Positions 1 through 13,059 of a stretch of 13,620 nt of DNA are shown here, in pieces. Position numbers and translations under genes: made by a program. The notes beneath the pieces were generated by a model that saw nothing but the letters and a program-made list of their open reading frames with translations, did not search any database and had not been told where the DNA came from. Source of the stretch: a virus (taxonomy: Duplodnaviria; Heunggongvirae; Uroviricota; Caudoviricetes); IMG/VR virus record IMGVR_UViG_2565956608_000003; one strand, 5' to 3'. How positions within the stretch are numbered: position 1 is the stretch's first letter; each line of letters begins with the position of its first letter.

Positions 1-1
1 G

Positions 2-403
2 GGGCTGAATCATTACCGTGATAACGCCATAACCTACAAAGAGCAGCGCGATAAAAAAGTCAGTGAGCTGGAGCAGGCAAATGCAACCATTACTGATATG
101 CAGCAGCGCCAGCGTGATGTTGCTGCACTCGATGAAAAATACTCAAGGGAGTTAGCTGATGCGAAAGCTGAAAATGATGCTCTGCGTGATGATATTGCCG
201 CTGGTCGTCGTCGGTTGCGCATCAGAGCAGTCTGTCCAGCCGTGCGTGAAGCCACCGGCACCACCGGCGTGGATGATGCAGCCCGCCCCGGACTTACTGA
301 CGCCGCTCAACGGGATTATTTCACCCTCAGAGAGCGAATCGCAACCAGCGACAGAATGATTCGGGGATTGCAGGAATATATCCGCACCCAGTGCATTAAG
401 TAG
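2..403 (+). CDS. Rz: Rz i-spanin, 5'-truncated by the window edge
   Basis: Frame open from base 2 ([18 protein letters not shown]...), continuous with track ORF 98..403; the translation closely matches my recollection of lambda Rz ([38 protein letters not shown]); stop TAG 401-403. Confidence 0.9.
159..359 (+). CDS. Rz1: Rz1 o-spanin lipoprotein, embedded in the +1 frame of Rz
   Basis: 66-aa ORF entirely inside Rz in another frame; [20 protein letters not shown] has a signal peptide and lipobox Cys, followed by a Pro-rich tail ([15 protein letters not shown]); closely matches recalled lambda Rz1; SD-like AAGGGAG about 7 nt upstream of ATG 159. Confidence 0.85.
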
Positions 404-426
404 TCTTTTTATTATCCGGAGGATGT

Positions 427-666
427 ATGAAGAAATTACTGGTAACCGTAAAGCCCTTTAACGGAACAATTCCGTTTCGGATTTTACAGCGTGGTCGTGT
501 TCTGGCTGAAGGTACATTCAGTGGTAAATGCACGGAATGTTATTCACGAATATATGAAGTGGATGCCTCGGATGAAGATATAACCGTTGAGTGTAATGCC
601 GGGATTGTATCGGCCACATTGCTTCATGGGCGAATTGGGTTGTCGCTGGAGGATGCAGGCAAATGA
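427..666 (+). CDS. Hypothetical small protein (79 aa), unknown function
   Basis: Track ORF; GGAGG(A) 418-423 about 4 nt upstream of ATG 427; lies between the lysis cassette and the HNH gene; I recognise no motif. Confidence 0.6.
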   Translation: MKKLLVTVKPFNGTIPFRILQRGRVLAEGTFSGKCTECYSRIYEVDASDEDITVECNAGIVSATLLHGRIGLSLEDAGK

Positions 667-851
667 ATTACCAACTGGCAAAACTTTATCGTGGTAAACA
701 TTTCGTAGGGTATGGGATTGCAGTTAATGGTGAGTTACTGGAAGGGCAGCTTTCCGCCAGGACAGAGTCACGTGGAGGCGAGCCACCAACAGTCACTGTG
801 ACTTTCAGACTGACAGCAGAACATATTGAGAATCAGCCGTCATTCAACTGA
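663..851 (+). CDS. Hypothetical small protein (62 aa), unknown function
   Basis: Track ORF; ATG 663 overlaps the upstream stop as ATGA (664-666), suggesting translational coupling; GGAGG at 648-652; I recognise no motif. Confidence 0.55.
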   Translation: MNYQLAKLYRGKHFVGYGIAVNGELLEGQLSARTESRGGEPPTVTVTFRLTAEHIENQPSFN

Positions 852-869
852 ACAGGGTGTGAGGTATTT

Positions 870-1220
870 ATGCCATCACGAATCCCACGCGCCTGCCGTA
901 AGCGTGGATGTGCAGGTACAACCACAGACAGTTCTGGTTACTGCGATAAACATCGTGGCGAAGGATGGGTACAGCATCAACGCGGACTGAGCCGCCACCA
1001 GCGTGGCTATGGCTCGAAATGGGATGCCATACGTGCGCGCATACTGAAGCGTGATAATCATCTGTGTCAGAACTGCCTGCGCAATGGGAGAGCCGTTGAA
1101 GCCAGAACTGTGGACCACATCATTCCGAAAGCTCATGGTGGCACGGATGCAGACAGTAACCTGCAGAGTCTGTGCTGGCCCTGTCATAAAGCAAAAACAG
1201 CGCGTGAACGCATCAACTGA
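870..1220 (+). CDS. HNH endonuclease (packaging-associated, HK97 gp74-like)
   Basis: HNH signature DHIIPKAHGG...SNLQSLCWPCH with Cys pairs CQNC and CWPC (zinc-finger type), plus an N-terminal Cys cluster; sits directly upstream of the small terminase gene, as in HK97-like phages; GAGG 861-864 before ATG 870. Confidence 0.9.
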   Translation: MPSRIPRACRKRGCAGTTTDSSGYCDKHRGEGWVQHQRGLSRHQRGYGSKWDAIRARILKRDNHLCQNCLRNGRAVEARTVDHIIPKAHGGTDADSNLQSLCWPCHKAKTARERIN

Positions 1221-8333: not shown

Positions 8334-8352
8334 GGTCGTTAATGATTTACCC

Positions 8353-8375
8353 ACCCGCCGCTGGCGGGTTTTTTT
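8353..8375 (+). terminator. Rho-independent terminator-like hairpin upstream of the major tail gene
   Basis: aCCCGCC-gct-GGCGGG followed by T7 (8369-8375), then AGGAG and ATG 8393. Confidence 0.55.
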
Positions 8376-8392
8376 ATTTTCAGGAGACGAGT

Positions 8393-9097
8393 ATGTCCTC
8401 TAATTTTGAGCGTTCGCAACTGACGAAAATTATGATTTCGTCTGCACCGGTAACAGCAGAAACCCTGGATTCTGCCAGCTATCTTGGCCTGAGCTGTACA
8501 ATCAAAGAGGTGCAGTTTACCGCAGGACAAAAGCAGGATATTGATGTCACCACGCTGTGTTCTGTTGAGCAGGAAAATATTAACGGCCTTGGGGCTGCTT
8601 CAGAGATTTCCATGTCAGGCAACTTTTATCTGAATGCTGCCCAGAACGCGTTGCGCAGTGCCTATGACAATGACACCACGTATGGCTTTAAAGTTATTTT
8701 TCCGTCAGGCAACGGATTTACCTTTATGGCAGAGGTGCGTCAGCATACCTGGTCTGCAGGAACCAATGGTGTTGTGGCTGCAACGTTTTCCCTGCGTCTG
8801 AAAGGTAAACCTGTGCTGACGACAGAGCCGCTGAAAGTGAAGGTCGATTTAAAAAGCACGCTGCGGGTTTCTTCCGGAGCGAAACTTGAAATGGCGGTTG
8901 AGGCTGCGGGGGGTGTGCCGCCTTATTCTTATGCCTGGAAAAAAGGTGGTTCTCCTGTTTCCGGACAGACGGCGGCAACGTTCAGTAAGGCATCAGCAGC
9001 ATCCGGTGATGCCGGTGCGTATACCTGCGAGATTTCTGATTCAGCAAGCCCTGTTAACAAGGTGACCTCCACTTCCTGCACTGTAACCGTCAGTTAA
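8393..9097 (+). CDS. Major tail (tube) protein with C-terminal Ig-like domain
   Basis: Track ORF 8342..9097 reads through the hairpin; realistic start ATG 8393 (AGGAG 8382-8386, 6-nt spacer). C-terminal ~90 aa (PPYSYAWKKGGSPVSGQ...GAYTCEISDSA...CTVTVS) looks like an Ig-like module, as on lambda gpV. Confidence 0.8.
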   Translation: MSSNFERSQLTKIMISSAPVTAETLDSASYLGLSCTIKEVQFTAGQKQDIDVTTLCSVEQENINGLGAASEISMSGNFYLNAAQNALRSAYDNDTTYGFKVIFPSGNGFTFMAEVRQHTWSAGTNGVVAATFSLRLKGKPVLTTEPLKVKVDLKSTLRVSSGAKLEMAVEAAGGVPPYSYAWKKGGSPVSGQTAATFSKASAASGDAGAYTCEISDSASPVNKVTSTSCTVTVS

Positions 9098-9111
9098 TGA
9101 GGATGGATGTG

Positions 9112-9483
9112 ATGACTAAAAATATCCGTAATCTGGCACTGGCAACGATGTCGGGGTTTCGCCATAAAACCGTTGATGTGCCTGAATGGGAGGGAGCAAC
9201 GGTTGTGTTACGGGAACCTTCTGCAGAAGCCTGGTTGCGCTGGCAGGAGATCGTTAAAGCAAAAGATGATGAGACACCGTTATCCGTTGCGGAGCGCGCC
9301 CGCCGAAATCTGGAGGCAGATGTTGAACTGTTCATTGATGTTCTGTGTGATACCGGACTGCAACCCGTATTTTCAGAGGATGATCGTGAACAGGTGATTG
9401 CCGTGTATGGCCCGGTGCATGCGCGGCTTCTTCGGCAGTCTCTGGAACTGATCAGTGATGCCGGCGAGGTTAAAAAAAAGTAG
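9112..9483 (+). CDS. Tail assembly chaperone (lambda gpG analogue)
   Basis: ORF between major tail and tape measure genes; likely start ATG 9112 (GAGGA 9099-9103) rather than 9097; ends ...GEVKKK-TAG directly on an A-rich slippery site. Confidence 0.8.
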   Translation: MTKNIRNLALATMSGFRHKTVDVPEWEGATVVLREPSAEAWLRWQEIVKAKDDETPLSVAERARRNLEADVELFIDVLCDTGLQPVFSEDDREQVIAVYGPVHARLLRQSLELISDAGEVKKK

Positions 9484-9785
9484 CGCTTCCGGGGATGCGT
9501 TTTCTGATGATGCTGGCGCTCAGGATGGGGCGCACATTGTCAGAGTTACGCCGGGAAATGTCCGCATCAGAAATCATGATGTGGGCAGAATTTGACAGGT
9601 TCAGCCCGCTGGGTGACGAGCGGGCTGATATCCGGGCTGCCCAGATTGTTTCAGCTGTTTACGGTGCGCAGGGGGTCAAAGTGCCACTGAATGATGCGCT
9701 TCTTCAGTGGGAGCAGGAGCAGACAGAAGGCGTCTCAGATCCATTTGCCGGACTGGAAAACGCGCTTTTAATAGTGTCTCAGTGA
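9112..9785 (+). CDS. Tail assembly chaperone frameshift fusion (lambda gpGT analogue), by -1 slip at 9474-9480
   Basis: The -1 frame is closed by TAA at 9471-9473 and opens exactly at the heptamer A-AAA-AAG, then runs stop-free to 9785; ATG 9495 has no SD, arguing against independent initiation. Confidence 0.7.
9474..9480 (+). other. Slippery heptamer A-AAA-AAG (programmed -1 frameshift site)
   Basis: Read directly from the sequence; zero-frame stop TAG follows at 9481-9483. Confidence 0.7.
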
Positions 9786-9793
9786 GTCAACAT

Positions 9794-9815
9794 AACCGCT
9801 TCGGCGGTTTTTTTT
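9794..9815 (+). terminator. Rho-independent terminator-like hairpin between GT and the tape measure gene
   Basis: AACCGC-ttcg-GCGGTT stem with a UUCG-type tetraloop, followed by a T-run to 9815. Confidence 0.6.
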
Positions 9816-9825
9816 CGTCCGGAGA

Positions 9826-12800
9826 ATGAGTGTGGCGACATTACGTGAACTGATTATTAAAATCTCGGCAAATTCCCGGTCATTCCAGTCAGAGATCTCC
9901 CGGGCTTCGCGTATGGGGCAGGATTACTACCGTACCATGCAGAACGGAGGCCGACAGTCCGCTGCTGCATCCCGTGAAATGCGGCGTGCACTGGCAGAAG
10001 TGACGGATCAGATAAATACAGCTAAATCTTCGGCACTGAACATGGCGGGGGCATTTGCCGGGGCTTTTGCTACCGGTCATCTTATTTCTCTCGCCGATGA
10101 GTGGAATTCAGTAAATGCCCGTCTGAAGCAGGCCTCACAGTCCAGTGATGATTTTCAGTCATCACAGCGTGAATTAATGGCGATCAGCCAGAGAACGGGG
10201 ACGGCTTTTTCTGATAACGCCAGCCTTTTTGCCCGCTCTGCAGCTTCCATGCGGGAGTATGGTTACAGTTCTGAGGAGGTACTGAAAGTCACCGAGGCGA
10301 TCTCCACGGGCCTGAAATTATCCGGTGCCAGTACAGCAGAAGCCAGTTCGGTGATCACGCAGTTCAGTCAGGCTCTGGCGCAGGGAGTGCTGCGCGGTGA
10401 AGAGTTTAACTCGGTGAATGAGAACGGCGATCGTGTTATTCGTGCTCTGGCTGCGGGAATGGGAGTTGCCCGTAAGGATCTGAAGGCCATGGCGGATAAC
10501 GGAAAGTTGACCGCCGATAAGGTTGTTCCTGCACTGATTAGTCAGCTTGGGGCATTACGTGATGAATATGCGGCAATGCCTGATACGGTTTCATCCTCTG
10601 CAACCAAAGTTGAAAACGCCTTTATGGCCTGGGTTGGTGGTGCGAACGAGGCAAGCGGAGTGACGAAGACGCTCTCCGGTGTGCTGAATGGTATTGCAGG
10701 CAATATTGACACCGTGGCAACCGCTGCCGGTGCTCTGGTTGCCGTCGGGGTAGCCCGATATTTTGGCAATATGGCGTCGTCTGCTGGATCTGCAACTGCC
10801 GGATTAATTACTGCAGCCAGAAACGAAGTGGCTCTTGCTGAAGTGCAACTTCGGGGGACACAGATAGCAACCGCCAGGGCGCGTGCGGCGGTTTATCGTG
10901 CGCAACAGGCGGTTGTTGCTGCTCGCGGTACCGAAAGGCAGGCCGCAGCAGAAGCGAAGCTGACAGCTGCCCAGGTGTCACTTACCCGTAATATTGCGGC
11001 CAGAACAGCGGCACAGACAACGCTGAATAATGTTACGTCAGTGGGGAGTCGTTTATTAAGTGGCGCGCTGGGGCTGGTTGGTGGTGTGCCGGGACTCGTC
11101 ATGCTGGGGGCTGCGGCCTGGTACACGATGTATCAGAATCAGGAGCAGGCCAGAGAATCTGCACGCCAGTATGCCGCAACAATCGACGAAATTCGCCAGA
11201 AAACGTCGGCAATGTCGCTTCCTGAAGCGTCAGATAATGAGGAAAAGACGCGACAGGCACTGAAGGAGCAAAACAGGTTAATTGACGAGCAGAAAAGTAA
11301 GATTAAATCCTTACAGGAAAAAATTGCTGGCTATCAGTATGTGCTGGCAAACCCGGGCTGGACAACCGATAACGGTTTTATGATTAACCACATGACGTCG
11401 GTAAAAACTGTCACAGAAGGGCTTGCAGAAGCAACAAATCAACTGGCAGTTGAACAGTCTCGCCTCACTCAAATGCAGGGCAAAGCGCAATCCATTCAGG
11501 ATGTGCTTGCCGGGCTGGAGGAGCGACGGGTGGCGTTGATCCGTCAACAGGCAGCGGAACAAAACAAAGCGTATCAGTCCCTGTTGATCATGAATGGGCA
11601 GCATACCGAGTTTAATCGCCTTCTCGGGCTCGGTAATGAATTACTTCAGCAGCGACAGGGGCTGGTGAATGTACCGTTACGGCTACCACAGGCAACCCTG
11701 GATGATAAACAGCAGACCGCACTGAATAACAGCGAGCGCGAACTGGCTCTGTCCCGCCTGAAGGGGGAAGCTCGTGAGCGTGCCCGCCTGGGTTATGCTG
11801 CGGATGATCTCGGCTTTGTGGGAGAGGCGTATCAGACAGCAAGACTGAATTATATAAATAACTCACTGGATGCATGGCGAAATAACCAGGCAAATAAACC
11901 CAAAGCGCATAAAAAGACCGAAGCGGAAAAAACAGAGGATATTTATAAACGGCTGATTAAACAGCAAAAAGAACAGATAGCACTGGCAGGGCAGAATACT
12001 GAACTGGCTAAGATGAAATATCAGGTCAGTCAGGGCGAATTATCAACCCTGTCAGAAGCGCAGAAAAAAACGCTTTTGCAGAATGCAGCACTTATCGACC
12101 AGAAAAAGATTCGTGAGCAGCTTGCTGCGTATGAGAGCAGTCTGGCGGACAGTAATGCCAGTGTCAGAGCATCAAATGAGGCTCAGTTACTGGGATATGG
12201 TGAAGGCTCACGGATGCGTGAACGACTTCAGGAAATGTGGAGCATCCGGCAGGAGTTTGAGCAGAAAAATAACGAGCTACTGAGACAGTATCAGGCCGGA
12301 GAAATTGAAGAAGCCCTGTGGAAACAGGAGAAAGAGCTGAATAAAAAATATCTGGAAGAGCGTCTCAGCGATCAGCAGGATTATTATGCAAAGGCTGATG
12401 CTTTACGCAGTAACTGGAATGCCGGGCTCAAAGAGGGGCTGACGAACTGGGCAGACAGTGCCACCGATTATGCTTCGCAGGCGGCAGATGCTGTCGTTTC
12501 CACGATGGACGGGCTGGTATCAAATATTTCCGATGCACTGGCCGGGAATGTTGTGGACTGGAGGAACTGGGGGAGTTCAGTTCTCCGGGAAGTTTCAAAA
12601 ATTCTGATGAATGCAGCCATTGTTAACGGACTGAAATCACTCTCCGGTGCCGGAGGGTGGCTTGGTACGGTCGGCGGATGGATTTCGGGGGCAGTGGCAA
12701 ACGCAAAAGGTGGTGTTTACACATCGGCAAATCTGAGTGCGTACAGCAACAGCATTGTGGACACGCCCACGTACTTTGCGTTTGCAAAAGGGGCCGGGCT

Positions 12801-13059
12801 GATGGGGGAAGCCGGACCTGAAGCCATTATGCCCCTGACCCGGGCGGCGGATGGCTCGCTGGGCGTACGCGCGGTGGGCAGTATGAACGGCAGTGCCGGT
12901 CTGGTGTATTCCCCGGTCTACCACATCGCCATTCAGAATGACGGGGCTAACGGACAGATAGGGCCGGAGGCGGCAGGCAGTCTTGTGCAGCTGATTGACC
13001 AGCGGGTGCAGGCGGTGATGCTGTCCATGCGACGTGACGGAGGAATGCTGAGTGGCTGA
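9826..13059 (+). CDS. Tail tape measure protein (lambda gpH-like C-terminus)
   Basis: 1077-aa ORF after the chaperone pair; Gly/Ala-rich hydrophobic segments near the N-terminus and centre, long coiled-coil-like middle, C-terminus (HIAIQNDGANGQIGPEAAG...RRDGGMLSG) resembling recalled lambda gpH. Start could be ATG 9826 or in-frame GTG 9832 (better spaced from GGAG 9821-9824). Confidence 0.9.
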   Translation: MSVATLRELIIKISANSRSFQSEISRASRMGQDYYRTMQNGGRQSAAASREMRRALAEVTDQINTAKSSALNMAGAFAGAFATGHLISLADEWNSVNARLKQASQSSDDFQSSQRELMAISQRTGTAFSDNASLFARSAASMREYGYSSEEVLKVTEAISTGLKLSGASTAEASSVITQFSQALAQGVLRGEEFNSVNENGDRVIRALAAGMGVARKDLKAMADNGKLTADKVVPALISQLGALRDEYAAMPDTVSSSATKVENAFMAWVGGANEASGVTKTLSGVLNGIAGNIDTVATAAGALVAVGVARYFGNMASSAGSATAGLITAARNEVALAEVQLRGTQIATARARAAVYRAQQAVVAARGTERQAAAEAKLTAAQVSLTRNIAARTAAQTTLNNVTSVGSRLLSGALGLVGGVPGLVMLGAAAWYTMYQNQEQARESARQYAATIDEIRQKTSAMSLPEASDNEEKTRQALKEQNRLIDEQKSKIKSLQEKIAGYQYVLANPGWTTDNGFMINHMTSVKTVTEGLAEATNQLAVEQSRLTQMQGKAQSIQDVLAGLEERRVALIRQQAAEQNKAYQSLLIMNGQHTEFNRLLGLGNELLQQRQGLVNVPLRLPQATLDDKQQTALNNSERELALSRLKGEARERARLGYAADDLGFVGEAYQTARLNYINNSLDAWRNNQANKPKAHKKTEAEKTEDIYKRLIKQQKEQIALAGQNTELAKMKYQVSQGELSTLSEAQKKTLLQNAALIDQKKIREQLAAYESSLADSNASVRASNEAQLLGYGEGSRMRERLQEMWSIRQEFEQKNNELLRQYQAGEIEEALWKQEKELNKKYLEERLSDQQDYYAKADALRSNWNAGLKEGLTNWADSATDYASQAADAVVSTMDGLVSNISDALAGNVVDWRNWGSSVLREVSKILMNAAIVNGLKSLSGAGGWLGTVGGWISGAVANAKGGVYTSANLSAYSNSIVDTPTYFAFAKGAGLMGEAGPEAIMPLTRAADGSLGVRAVGSMNGSAGLVYSPVYHIAIQNDGANGQIGPEAAGSLVQLIDQRVQAVMLSMRRDGGMLSG

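What the first reader, a model, noticed from the sequence alone, without database searches (positions are those of the whole stretch)
9471..9785. Programmed -1 frameshift in the tail chaperone gene at A-AAA-AAG
The chaperone ORF ends in a run of eight A then G, giving the heptamer A-AAA-AAG (9474-9480) directly followed by the zero-frame stop TAG. The -1 frame is closed by TAA at 9471-9473 and is open from the heptamer for about 100 codons to 9785. The downstream ATG 9495 has no SD. This is the arrangement expected for a conserved G/GT-type frameshift in long-tailed phages, but with a different slip sequence from lambda (G-GGA-AAG as I recall). A possible long-range pairing AGCGC (9482-9486) with GCGCT (9526-9530) could act as a downstream stimulator, but I cannot evaluate it.
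Basis: partly seen in the sequence, partly recalled or inferred. Interest (0 to 1): 0.55.

Follow-up and report, generated by a model that had tools for sequence, protein, structure and literature searches.

The report
Tail chaperone G/GT programmed -1 frameshift

Summary
A 123-aa chaperone gene (Pfam Phage_TAC_1, 9112-9483) ends GTT AAA AAA AAG TAG. The heptamer A_AAA_AAG (9474-9480) is in slip phase and fills the whole 7-nt stretch where both frames are open. The -1 frame then runs 101 codons to TGA 9783-9785 and encodes a lambda-T-like domain (Pfam Phage_tail_T). The genes lie between the tail tube and tape measure genes of an HK97-like E. coli prophage found in about 900 of 5426 complete genomes.

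In 83 distinct junctions from many genera, an in-phase slip site lies at a fixed distance (32, 35 or 38 nt) from the T-domain motif. A_AAA_AAG is the commonest form (43 of 83). Codon-position variability switches from the 0 to the -1 frame exactly at the site, upstream of any conserved ATG. HK97, HK106, KS9 and Bcep176 records annotate this frameshift. A cassette with the same A_AAA_AAG_TAG junction from a 63-66% identical homologue gave 7% frameshifting in E. coli (PMC3711429).

No family-wide RNA stimulator was found.

Verdict: interpretation supported, already known, low interest. RefSeq and the close phage records annotate G and T as separate genes.

The parts
9112..9483 (+). G-like tail assembly chaperone gene in the 0 frame: 123 aa plus stop. 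The ORF is open from ATG 9097, but the likely start is ATG 9112.
   Evidence: Pfam PF06222 Phage_TAC_1, E=2.7e-58, covering the full model from residue 6 of the 128-aa ORF. Annotated 9112-9483 in RefSeq and in phage records. The exact 123-aa protein occurs on more than 1000 contigs.
9474..9480 (+). Slippery heptamer A_AAA_AAG in X_XXY_YYZ phase. It is part of an A8 run at 9472-9479.
   Evidence: Sequence. The AAAG core is invariant in 54 of 54 aligned relatives. A_AAA_AAG is found in 43 of 83 distinct junctions counting the window. It is among the three most efficient -1 motifs in E. coli (PMC4066793).
9481..9483 (+). The 0-frame stop TAG, immediately 3' of the heptamer. It ends G and is a possible 'shifty stop' stimulator.
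   Evidence: The stop directly abuts the slip site in 48 of 83 distinct junctions, including all 13 whose P-site tRNA cannot re-pair.
9471..9473 (+). TAA in the -1 frame. It closes that frame upstream, so entry into the T frame is confined to the heptamer.
   Evidence: overlap of the two open frames = 7 nt.
9480..9785 (+). T extension in the -1 frame: 101 codons (VALPGMRFLMMLALRMGRTL...) plus TGA 9783-9785.
   Evidence: Pfam PF06223 Phage_tail_T, E=3.8e-19. Codon-position variability is in -1 phase from the heptamer onward, and a Pro codon (window 9489-9491) is conserved in 53 of 54 relatives upstream of any conserved ATG.
9112..9785 (+). The GT fusion product, join(9112..9480, 9480..9785), 224 aa. 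Inferred to be made by a few percent of ribosomes.
   Evidence: tblastn of the fusion matches relatives in two pieces in two frames. Joined CDSs are annotated in HK97, HK106, KS9 and Bcep176. The efficiency figure is inferred from a homologous cassette that gave 7%.
9487..9556 (+). Predicted hairpin downstream of the site. A role as stimulator is not established.
   Evidence: Minimum free energy -31.7 kcal/mol, z=-2.5. It is not conserved across 54 relatives: no RNAalifold consensus and 55% of cells paired. A core at 9502-9545 is kept in a hand-picked sub-clade with almost no compensatory change. The conserved core starts 21 nt or more after the heptamer.
8342..9097 (+). Context: the major tail (tube) protein gene with a C-terminal Ig-like domain, immediately upstream.
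   Evidence: Pfam Ig_2, Ig_3, Phage_TTP_11 and Phage_tail_2. Annotated as major tail subunit or immunoglobulin domain protein.
9826..13059 (+). Context: the tape measure protein gene, immediately downstream.
   Evidence: Pfam Phage_HK97_TLTM (2.1e-93), TMP_3 and Tape_meas_lam_C. Annotation.

Best explanation
Ribosomes translating the tail assembly chaperone gene (G analogue, 9112-9483) reach A_AAA_AAG at 9474-9480. Most read AAG and then terminate at TAG, giving the 123-aa chaperone. A minority, probably a few percent, slip one base back on the lysine codons. E. coli has a single tRNA-Lys (anticodon mnm5s2UUU) that pairs as well or better with AAA than with AAG. These ribosomes continue in the -1 frame with GTA GCG CTT CCG..., giving a 224-aa G-T fusion whose C-terminal part is a lambda-T-like domain.

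By analogy with lambda gpG and gpGT, both proteins coat the tape measure protein. The rare T domain recruits the tail tube protein, and the slip fixes the G:GT ratio. Neither protein ends up in the virion.

Shown here: the anatomy, the homology, conservation of the site, and the switch of coding phase at the site. Inferred: the efficiency, the stoichiometry and the assembly role. No conserved RNA structure or Shine-Dalgarno-like stimulator is needed. The abutting stop codon may be the only stimulator.
For: - Anatomy.
- Domains and gene order (tube, then G, then T, then tape measure).
- Two-frame homology: the fused sequence matches 226 phage records, and 198 of them cover at least 80% of it; the full-length matches among the rows listed are in two pieces, as two reading frames give.
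- Site conservation: among 83 distinct junctions from Enterobacterales, Halomonadaceae, Burkholderia, Achromobacter and Pseudomonas, every one has an in-phase slip motif in the overlap. In the 82 relatives the counts are A_AAA_AAG 42, G_GGA_AAG 6, A_AAA_AAC 6, A_AAA_AAA 1, G_GGA_AAC 1 and N_NNA_AAG 26 (the window adds one more A_AAA_AAG).
- Fixed geometry: the motif lies 32, 35 or 38 nt before the LALRxGRT motif, although the G stop wanders from 0 to 33 nt.
- Phase switch: mean column entropy peaks at codon position 3 of the 0 frame upstream of the heptamer (0.76/0.83/1.59) and at position 3 of the -1 frame from the heptamer to the first conserved Met (0.83/0.82/1.49). The peptide K-V-x-x-P is conserved there.
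- No alternative start: 70 of 83 junctions have no ATG, GTG or TTG in the T frame upstream of that Pro. KS9 lacks the conserved Met altogether.
- Annotated frameshifts: HK97 ('translated due to a -1 frameshift'), HK106, KS9 and Bcep176.
[quoted passage not shown] A G_GGA_AAG relative gave 6% (PMC3711429).
- Motif strength: A_AA.A_AA.G is a top-efficiency motif in E. coli (PMC4066793).
Against: - No experiment was done on this exact sequence.
- RefSeq (PGAP) and the close phage records annotate T as a separate gene, starting at 9507 or 9495.
- A Met codon (window 9507-9509) is conserved in 53 of 54 relatives and lies near the G stop in all lineages. A free T made by re-initiation cannot be excluded as an additional product.
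- The A8 run could also allow some transcriptional slippage, which would give the same protein.
Confidence: 0.9

Rival explanations
1. T is an independent gene. Ribosomes that terminate at TAG 9481 re-initiate at ATG 9495, 9507 or 9510, or initiate there de novo, giving a free 92-96-aa T protein. No fusion is needed.
For: Databases annotate it this way. The Met codon of the F-L-M motif (9507-9509) is conserved in 53 of 54 relatives. In Achromobacter and Burkholderia relatives the G stop overlaps it as TGATG, a classic coupling arrangement.
Against: - There is no Shine-Dalgarno sequence before any of the three ATGs, and the annotated starts disagree.
- The stretch between the heptamer and the Met evolves as -1-frame coding sequence with a conserved K-V-x-x-P, although it contains no start codon.
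- KS9 has Leu instead of Met at the conserved position.
- The in-phase slip site is kept at a fixed distance even where the stop is 30 nt downstream.
- The homologous cassette gave a GST-linked frameshift product, which cannot arise from internal initiation.
Confidence: 0.05
2. Transcriptional slippage. RNA polymerase adds one extra A in the A8 run, and the resulting A9 transcripts encode G-T in frame. The protein would be identical to the frameshift product.
For: The window has 8 consecutive A residues. An A9 DNA variant fuses G and T in L013. The exact fused protein exists on one public contig, which shows the run is indel-prone.
Against: - Known utilised slippage runs are usually 9 A or longer (PMC3711429).
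- In relatives the longest A run at the site is only 3-4 in 32 of 83 junctions and 6-7 in 43 of 83.
- The motif is always in X_XXY_YYZ phase with an invariant final G. That phase constraint matters to ribosomes, not to RNA polymerase.
- A6 and A3 cassettes still gave 6-7%.
Confidence: 0.04
3. A broken gene or a sequencing artefact. An originally continuous G-T gene lost one A from a homopolymer run, so the arrangement is a pseudogene.
For: Homopolymer runs are prone to indels, and A9 variants exist.
Against: - The two-frame arrangement is present in 898 complete E. coli genomes and in 87 IMG/VR contigs carrying the identical 28-mer.
- It is present in about 80 other species with different slip motifs.
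- A stand-alone G product in large excess is the functional design in lambda (PMC5009743).
Confidence: 0.01

Closest known systems
Phage HK97 gp13/gp14 (also HK106, HK022-like phages): tail assembly chaperone with a -1 frameshift extension
   Same: Same Pfam families (Phage_TAC_1 plus Phage_tail_T), same place between the tube and tape measure genes, same -1 direction, and the same distance from slip site to the T motif. About 61% amino-acid identity over the fusion.
   Different: HK97 slips on CGG_GAA_AAG (G_GAA_AAG in slip phase), 15 nt before its TAA stop. It carries a moron (gp15) between T and the tape measure gene. The window uses A_AAA_AAG abutting TAG and has no moron.
E. coli O157 / BP-4795-type prophage Phage_TAC gene tested by Antonov et al. 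2013 (PMC3711429, fs-gene 15618692)
   Same: Identical signal architecture, A_AAA_AAG followed by TAG then C. Same family, at 63-66% identity. Measured at 7% -1 frameshifting in E. coli.
   Different: The codon before the run is AGA (an A6 run) rather than GTT AAA (A8), and the downstream sequence differs. The window's own sequence has not been assayed.
Phage lambda G/GT (Levin, Hendrix & Casjens 1993; Xu, Hendrix & Duda 2004, 2013, 2014)
   Same: Same logic and gene position. The T domain is homologous (PF06223). It is a low-level -1 slip on a heptamer ending in A_AAG, with no RNA stimulator required. The products are chaperones that are absent from virions.
   Different: The lambda heptamer is G_GGA_AAG (from my own knowledge, consistent). 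As far as I recall, lambda G belongs to a different Pfam family from Phage_TAC_1; this was not tested here.
E. coli dnaX tau/gamma frameshift
   Same: Identical heptamer A_AAA_AAG, and the same slippery tRNA-Lys.
   Different: dnaX has a Shine-Dalgarno-like stimulator 10 nt upstream and a hairpin about 6 nt downstream, and reaches about 50%. Its frameshift product is the shorter protein. Here there is no conserved Shine-Dalgarno-like element or hairpin, the expected efficiency is a few percent, and the frameshift product is the longer protein.
IS3/IS911-family transposase orfA-orfB frameshift
   Same: A_AAA_AAG is the dominant motif there too, and a fusion protein is made at a set low ratio from two overlapping ORFs.
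   Different: IS elements usually add a hairpin or pseudoknot and sometimes an upstream Shine-Dalgarno-like element. The proteins are unrelated.

Membership tests
G/GT-type conserved tail-chaperone frameshift of long-tailed phages (Xu, Hendrix & Duda 2004) | Two overlapping ORFs lying between the major tail (tube) gene and the tape measure gene | tested here: met
   Tube gene 8342-9097, G 9112-9483, T frame to 9785, tape measure 9826-13059.
G/GT-type conserved tail-chaperone frameshift of long-tailed phages (Xu, Hendrix & Duda 2004) | The second ORF is in a shifted (-1) frame and has no convincing initiation signal of its own | tested here: met
   The -1 frame is open only from 9474. There is no Shine-Dalgarno sequence before ATG 9495, 9507 or 9510, and annotators disagree on the start.
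G/GT-type conserved tail-chaperone frameshift of long-tailed phages (Xu, Hendrix & Duda 2004) | A slippery sequence in correct phase inside the overlap | tested here: met
   A_AAA_AAG at 9474-9480 fills the whole 7-nt overlap.
G/GT-type conserved tail-chaperone frameshift of long-tailed phages (Xu, Hendrix & Duda 2004) | The slip site and the two-frame arrangement are conserved in relatives | tested here: met
   All 83 distinct junctions have an in-phase motif at 32, 35 or 38 nt from the T motif, and the coding phase switches at the site.
G/GT-type conserved tail-chaperone frameshift of long-tailed phages (Xu, Hendrix & Duda 2004) | The fusion protein is actually made at a low fixed ratio and is required for tail assembly; both proteins are absent from virions | not testable with these tools
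   Indirect only: 7% for the same junction type in a homologue and the lambda data summarised in PMC5009743.
HK97 gp13/gp14 protein family (Pfam Phage_TAC_1 + Phage_tail_T) | Sequence membership of both parts above the curated thresholds | tested here: met
   PF06222 at 195.7 bits (cut-off 25). PF06223 at 69.3 bits (cut-off 25.9).
dnaX/IS911-type stimulated -1 frameshift signal | A Shine-Dalgarno-like element about 6-17 nt upstream of the heptamer | tested here: not met
   The window has GAGG at 9466-9469, only 4 nt from the heptamer. Of 83 relatives, 38 have no GGAG, GAGG or AGGA within 22 nt, and the rest have scattered spacings.
dnaX/IS911-type stimulated -1 frameshift signal | A conserved hairpin or pseudoknot starting about 5-9 nt downstream | tested here: inconclusive
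   The window folds to -31.7 kcal/mol with z=-2.5, and an outer helix starts 6 nt downstream. RNAalifold finds no consensus in 54 relatives, only 55% of cells are paired, and covariation is no better than in the slid controls. The sub-clade core is kept mainly by invariance and starts 21 nt or more downstream.
Programmed transcriptional slippage | A homopolymer run of 9 or more, conserved in length, with no constraint on reading phase | tested here: not met
   The run is A8 here. It is A3-A7 in 76 of 83 relatives, and the motif is always in ribosomal slip phase.

The most novel reading that the evidence does not exclude
In this chaperone family the conserved stimulator may be the 0-frame stop codon that abuts the slip site, not an RNA structure. 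With AAG in the P site and a slowly decoded stop in the A site (TAG-C or TAA-A context), peptidyl-tRNA-Lys alone could slip back. This would be a 'shifty stop', single-tRNA variant of the G/GT frameshift. It would explain why all 13 relatives whose P-site tRNA cannot re-pair (A_GCA_AAG, G_GCA_AAG, G_GTA_AAG) have the stop directly adjacent, although bare A_AAG tetramers are barely shifty without a stimulator. In the window, the A8 run and a lineage-specific hairpin might tune efficiency further.
Probability: 0.3. Interest if true: 0.3.

Novelty: already known. Interest (0 to 1): 0.12.

Why it matters
The main value is practical. RefSeq (PGAP) and the close phage records annotate the two parts as separate genes ('phage tail assembly chaperone' plus 'phage tail assembly protein T' or 'DUF4035 domain-containing protein'), with inconsistent T starts, in about 900 complete E. 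coli genomes. The 224-aa fusion, which is probably the functional form of T, is therefore missing from protein sets. Annotating join(9112..9480, 9480..9785) with ribosomal slippage would correct this.

Biologically the finding adds nothing new to the established G/GT paradigm. The survey of relatives gives one small testable hint: a stop codon abutting the slip site may substitute for P-site re-pairing.

Tried and rejected
The partner is at 9516-9520, not 9526-9530. The pairing starts 1 nt after the heptamer, which would be inside the ribosome. It is absent from the minimum-energy fold. Only 46% of cells pair in 54 relatives, and covariation is below that of the slid controls. Rejected.
- A family-wide downstream stimulatory structure. 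RNAalifold returned zero consensus pairs on 54 sequences. The window's hairpin is paired in 55% of cells, and the outer helix in 29%. Rejected as a family feature.
- A sub-clade hairpin. Pectobacterium and Brenneria relatives fold strongly (z=-6.4 and -4.1). A 12-sequence subset keeps 82% of cells paired. However, I chose that subset by its pairing score, the structure derives from the window, the inner helix is fixed by the LALRxGR codons, and RNAalifold's covariation term is about 0. Left as inconclusive.
- An upstream Shine-Dalgarno-like stimulator. Not conserved.
- Significance of the heptamer count alone. Not significant.
- The Xu et al. 2004 paper is not held in the library. I relied on the HK97 record annotation and on reviews.
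- Tracing the single contig that encodes the exact fused protein, and scanning for the A9 variant.

Full report
**1. The observation**

The sequence at 9460-9500 reads GCC GGC GAG GTT AAA AAA AAG TAG CGC TTC CGG GGA TGC in the frame of the ORF that ends at 9483.
- Eight A residues occupy 9472-9479, and G follows at 9480.
- A_AAA_AAG (9474-9480) is therefore in the X_XXY_YYZ phase that a tandem -1 slip needs.
- The 0-frame stop TAG (9481-9483) follows with no spacer.
- The -1 frame is closed by TAA at 9471-9473 and is then open for 103 codons to TGA 9783-9785.
- So the stretch in which both frames are open is 7 nt long, and it is exactly the heptamer.

The bare heptamer is not statistically remarkable. 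The window has 6 copies against 2.7 expected, and 13 of 200 shuffles reach 6. The two other plus-strand copies inside long ORFs are in the wrong phase. What is non-random is the arrangement and its conservation, described in section 3.

GCGCT is at 9516-9520, not 9526-9530.

**2. What the genes are**

- The 0-frame ORF is a Phage_TAC_1 tail assembly chaperone (E=2.7e-58). The match starts at the Met of ATG 9112, which has GAGGA 8 nt upstream.
- The -1 ORF is a Phage_tail_T domain, the lambda T family (E=3.8e-19).
- Upstream lies a tail tube protein with a C-terminal Ig-like domain.
- Downstream lies an HK97-type tape measure protein.

The region 9097-9800 is 100% identical to a prophage in E. 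coli MS8345, and at least 80% of it is covered in 898 of 5426 complete E. coli genomes. It is 98-99% identical to eleven induced E. coli phages. The surrounding genes are an HK97-like head and tail module: HNH endonuclease, terminase, portal, HK97 protease, capsid and connectors.

RefSeq annotates G (9112-9483) and T (9507-9785) as separate genes. Phage records start T at 9495. Neither annotates slippage.

**3. Evidence from relatives**

A tblastn search with the fused protein found 226 phage records, 198 of them covering at least 80% of the fusion. Among the rows listed, the full-length matches are in two pieces, as expected when the match spans two reading frames.

Several records annotate the frameshift.
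- HK106: joined CDS.
- Burkholderia phage KS9: joined CDS.
- Burkholderia phage Bcep176: joined CDS.

I collected 80 further loci from one genome per species and analysed every junction.

Among 83 distinct junctions, counting the window, all have an in-phase slip motif inside the overlap. The counts for the 82 relatives are below; the window adds one more A_AAA_AAG.

| Motif | Count (82 relatives) |
|---|---|
| A_AAA_AAG | 42 |
| G_GAA_AAG or A_GAA_AAG | 13 |
| A_GCA_AAG, G_GCA_AAG or G_GTA_AAG | 13 |
| G_GGA_AAG | 6 |
| A_AAA_AAC | 6 |
| A_AAA_AAA | 1 |
| G_GGA_AAC | 1 |

- The motif always ends 32, 35 or 38 nt before the LALRxGRT motif of the T domain, although the G stop lies anywhere from 0 to 33 nt after it.
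- In an ungapped 54-sequence alignment the AAAG core is invariant.
- Column variability peaks at codon position 3 of the 0 frame upstream of the heptamer (0.76/0.83/1.59).
- It peaks at position 3 of the -1 frame between the heptamer and the first conserved Met (0.83/0.82/1.49).
- A conserved K-V-x-x-P peptide is encoded in that stretch.
- That stretch contains no start codon in 70 of 83 junctions.
- KS9 lacks the conserved Met.

This is the signature of translation that crosses the junction by changing frame.

**4. Experimental anchor**

Antonov et al. 2013 (PMC3711429) tested two genes of a 41-member 'phage tail assembly chaperone' cluster similar to HK97, using a GST-MBP reporter in E. coli.
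- A G_GGA_AAG_CCG_TAA cassette gave 6 +/- 0.61%.
- The first cassette is identical to the BP-4795-type junction (L003). That homologue is 63-66% identical to the window's fusion and shares A_AAA_AAG, then TAG, then C.
- The cassette stops before the 3' arm of any downstream hairpin, so several percent is reached without one.

Sharma et al. 2014 (PMC4066793) rank A_AA.A_AA.G among the three best -1 motifs in E. coli and A_AA.G as the best tetramer. They also found that tetramers alone are barely above background.

**5. Stimulators**

- The window's 80 nt downstream fold to -31.7 kcal/mol (z=-2.5), with an outer helix beginning 6 nt after the heptamer.
- Across 54 relatives RNAalifold finds no consensus structure.
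- The window's structure is paired in only 55% of cells, the outer helix in 29%, and covariation equals that of the slid controls.
- The inner GCGCUC/GGGCGC helix is imposed by the conserved LALRxGR codons.
- A few relatives fold strongly: Pectobacterium (z=-6.4) and Brenneria (z=-4.1).
- A 12-sequence subset keeps a core hairpin (window 9502-9545) in 82% of cells.
- That subset was chosen by its pairing score, compensatory changes are almost absent, and the core starts 21 nt or more from the slip site.
- I therefore leave a lineage-specific modulatory hairpin as possible but unproven.
- Upstream Shine-Dalgarno-like tetramers are absent in 38 of 83 junctions and scattered in the rest. The window's GAGG is only 4 nt from the heptamer.
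- The most consistent flanking feature is the stop codon itself. It abuts the motif in 48 of 83 junctions.
- It abuts the motif in all 13 junctions where the P-site tRNA cannot re-pair, against 35 of 70 of the others. Fisher p=4e-4, not corrected for shared ancestry.

**6. Mechanism and rivals**

The best explanation is ribosomal -1 slippage of tRNA-Lys on A_AAA_AAG. This could be a tandem A/P-site slip, or a P-site slip with the stop codon in the A site. It would give roughly a few percent of a 224-aa G-T fusion alongside the 123-aa G. By analogy with lambda, G and GT coat the tape measure, the T domain recruits the tube protein, the ratio is about 30:1, and neither protein is in the virion (PMC5009743). 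The assembly role and the ratio are inferred, not shown.

Rivals:
- Independent or re-initiated T from the conserved Met. This is possible as an extra product. It does not explain the -1-phase coding upstream of the Met, the fixed position of the slip site, or the GST-linked product in the reporter.
- Transcriptional slippage on A8. It gives the same protein and may contribute slightly here. It cannot be the family mechanism, because the runs are A3-A7 in 76 of 83 junctions and the motif is always phase-locked.
- A pseudogene or sequencing error. This is excluded by conservation.

**7. Comparison and novelty**

This locus is a member of the HK97 gp13/gp14 family and of the general G/GT frameshift class. 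All sequence-testable defining features are met.

It shares the heptamer with dnaX and the IS3/IS911 elements, but not their Shine-Dalgarno-like or hairpin stimulators. Compared with lambda, the heptamer differs (A_AAA_AAG against G_GGA_AAG). As far as I recall, lambda G also belongs to a different Pfam family from Phage_TAC_1; I did not test that here.

A_AAA_AAG is the commonest motif in this family and has been assayed in a homologue. The finding is correct but already known. Its practical value is to correct the annotation.

Noticed in passing
window 9794-9817: A terminator-like hairpin (AACCGC TTCG GCGGTT followed by T8) sits between the T stop (9783-9785) and the tape measure start (9826), in the middle of the late tail operon. 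The HK97 and HK106 records annotate a putative terminator at the equivalent place, but after a moron gene (gp15) that this prophage lacks. The scan found 1 such site against 0.9 expected in shuffles, so the match alone is not significant.
   Followed up: partly
L013:1636-1660 (Candidatus Symbiopectobacterium endolongispinus); also protein P0003: This relative has A9 instead of A8 at the slip site, which fuses G and T in one frame. Separately, the exact 224-aa fusion predicted for the window exists once in the 15-billion-protein collection, on a single 6250-bp Logan/ENA contig. Either is a homopolymer sequencing error or a real +1 A mutation.
   Followed up: partly
related loci L005, L029, L032, L035, L040, L041, L043, L046, L047, L064, L066, L072, L079: Thirteen relatives have N_NNA_AAG sites (A_GCA_AAG, G_GCA_AAG, G_GTA_AAG) where the P-site tRNA cannot re-pair in the -1 frame. 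All 13 have the 0-frame stop immediately after AAG, against 35 of 70 of the other junctions. This suggests the stop codon acts as the stimulator. The comparison is not corrected for shared ancestry.
   Followed up: partly
L021:1864-1943 (Pectobacterium fontis), L022:1867-1946 (Brenneria salicis): These two relatives have a much stronger hairpin downstream of the slip site than the window (-36.6 and -37.5 kcal/mol; z=-6.4 and -4.1). Relative to the window there are two apparent compensatory changes: AUG/CAU becomes GCG/CGC, with the 3'-arm changes synonymous. This could be a lineage-specific frameshift modulator, or it could be chance in a GC-rich conserved coding stretch.
   Followed up: partly
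window 9097-9114 and 9495-9512: Start-codon ambiguity. The tube gene's stop overlaps an ATG (TAATG at 9095-9099) that opens the G ORF, but all annotations use ATG 9112. T is started at 9495 in phage records and at 9507 in RefSeq, and it is named either 'phage tail assembly protein T' or 'DUF4035 domain-containing protein'.
   Followed up: yes
window 8852-9094: The major tail (tube) protein carries a C-terminal immunoglobulin-like domain (Pfam Ig_2 and Ig_3, residues about 171-250). A second AAAAAAG (8939-8945) lies inside it, but in the AAA_AAA_G phase, so it is not a -1 slip site.
   Followed up: partly
window 1-870 compared with L002: Upstream of the HNH endonuclease gene (870-1220), the window's ORF pattern does not match the gene layout of the otherwise identical MS8345 prophage, which has a YfbU-family gene on the minus strand. 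This suggests a mosaic boundary between the lysis and packaging modules.
   Followed up: no
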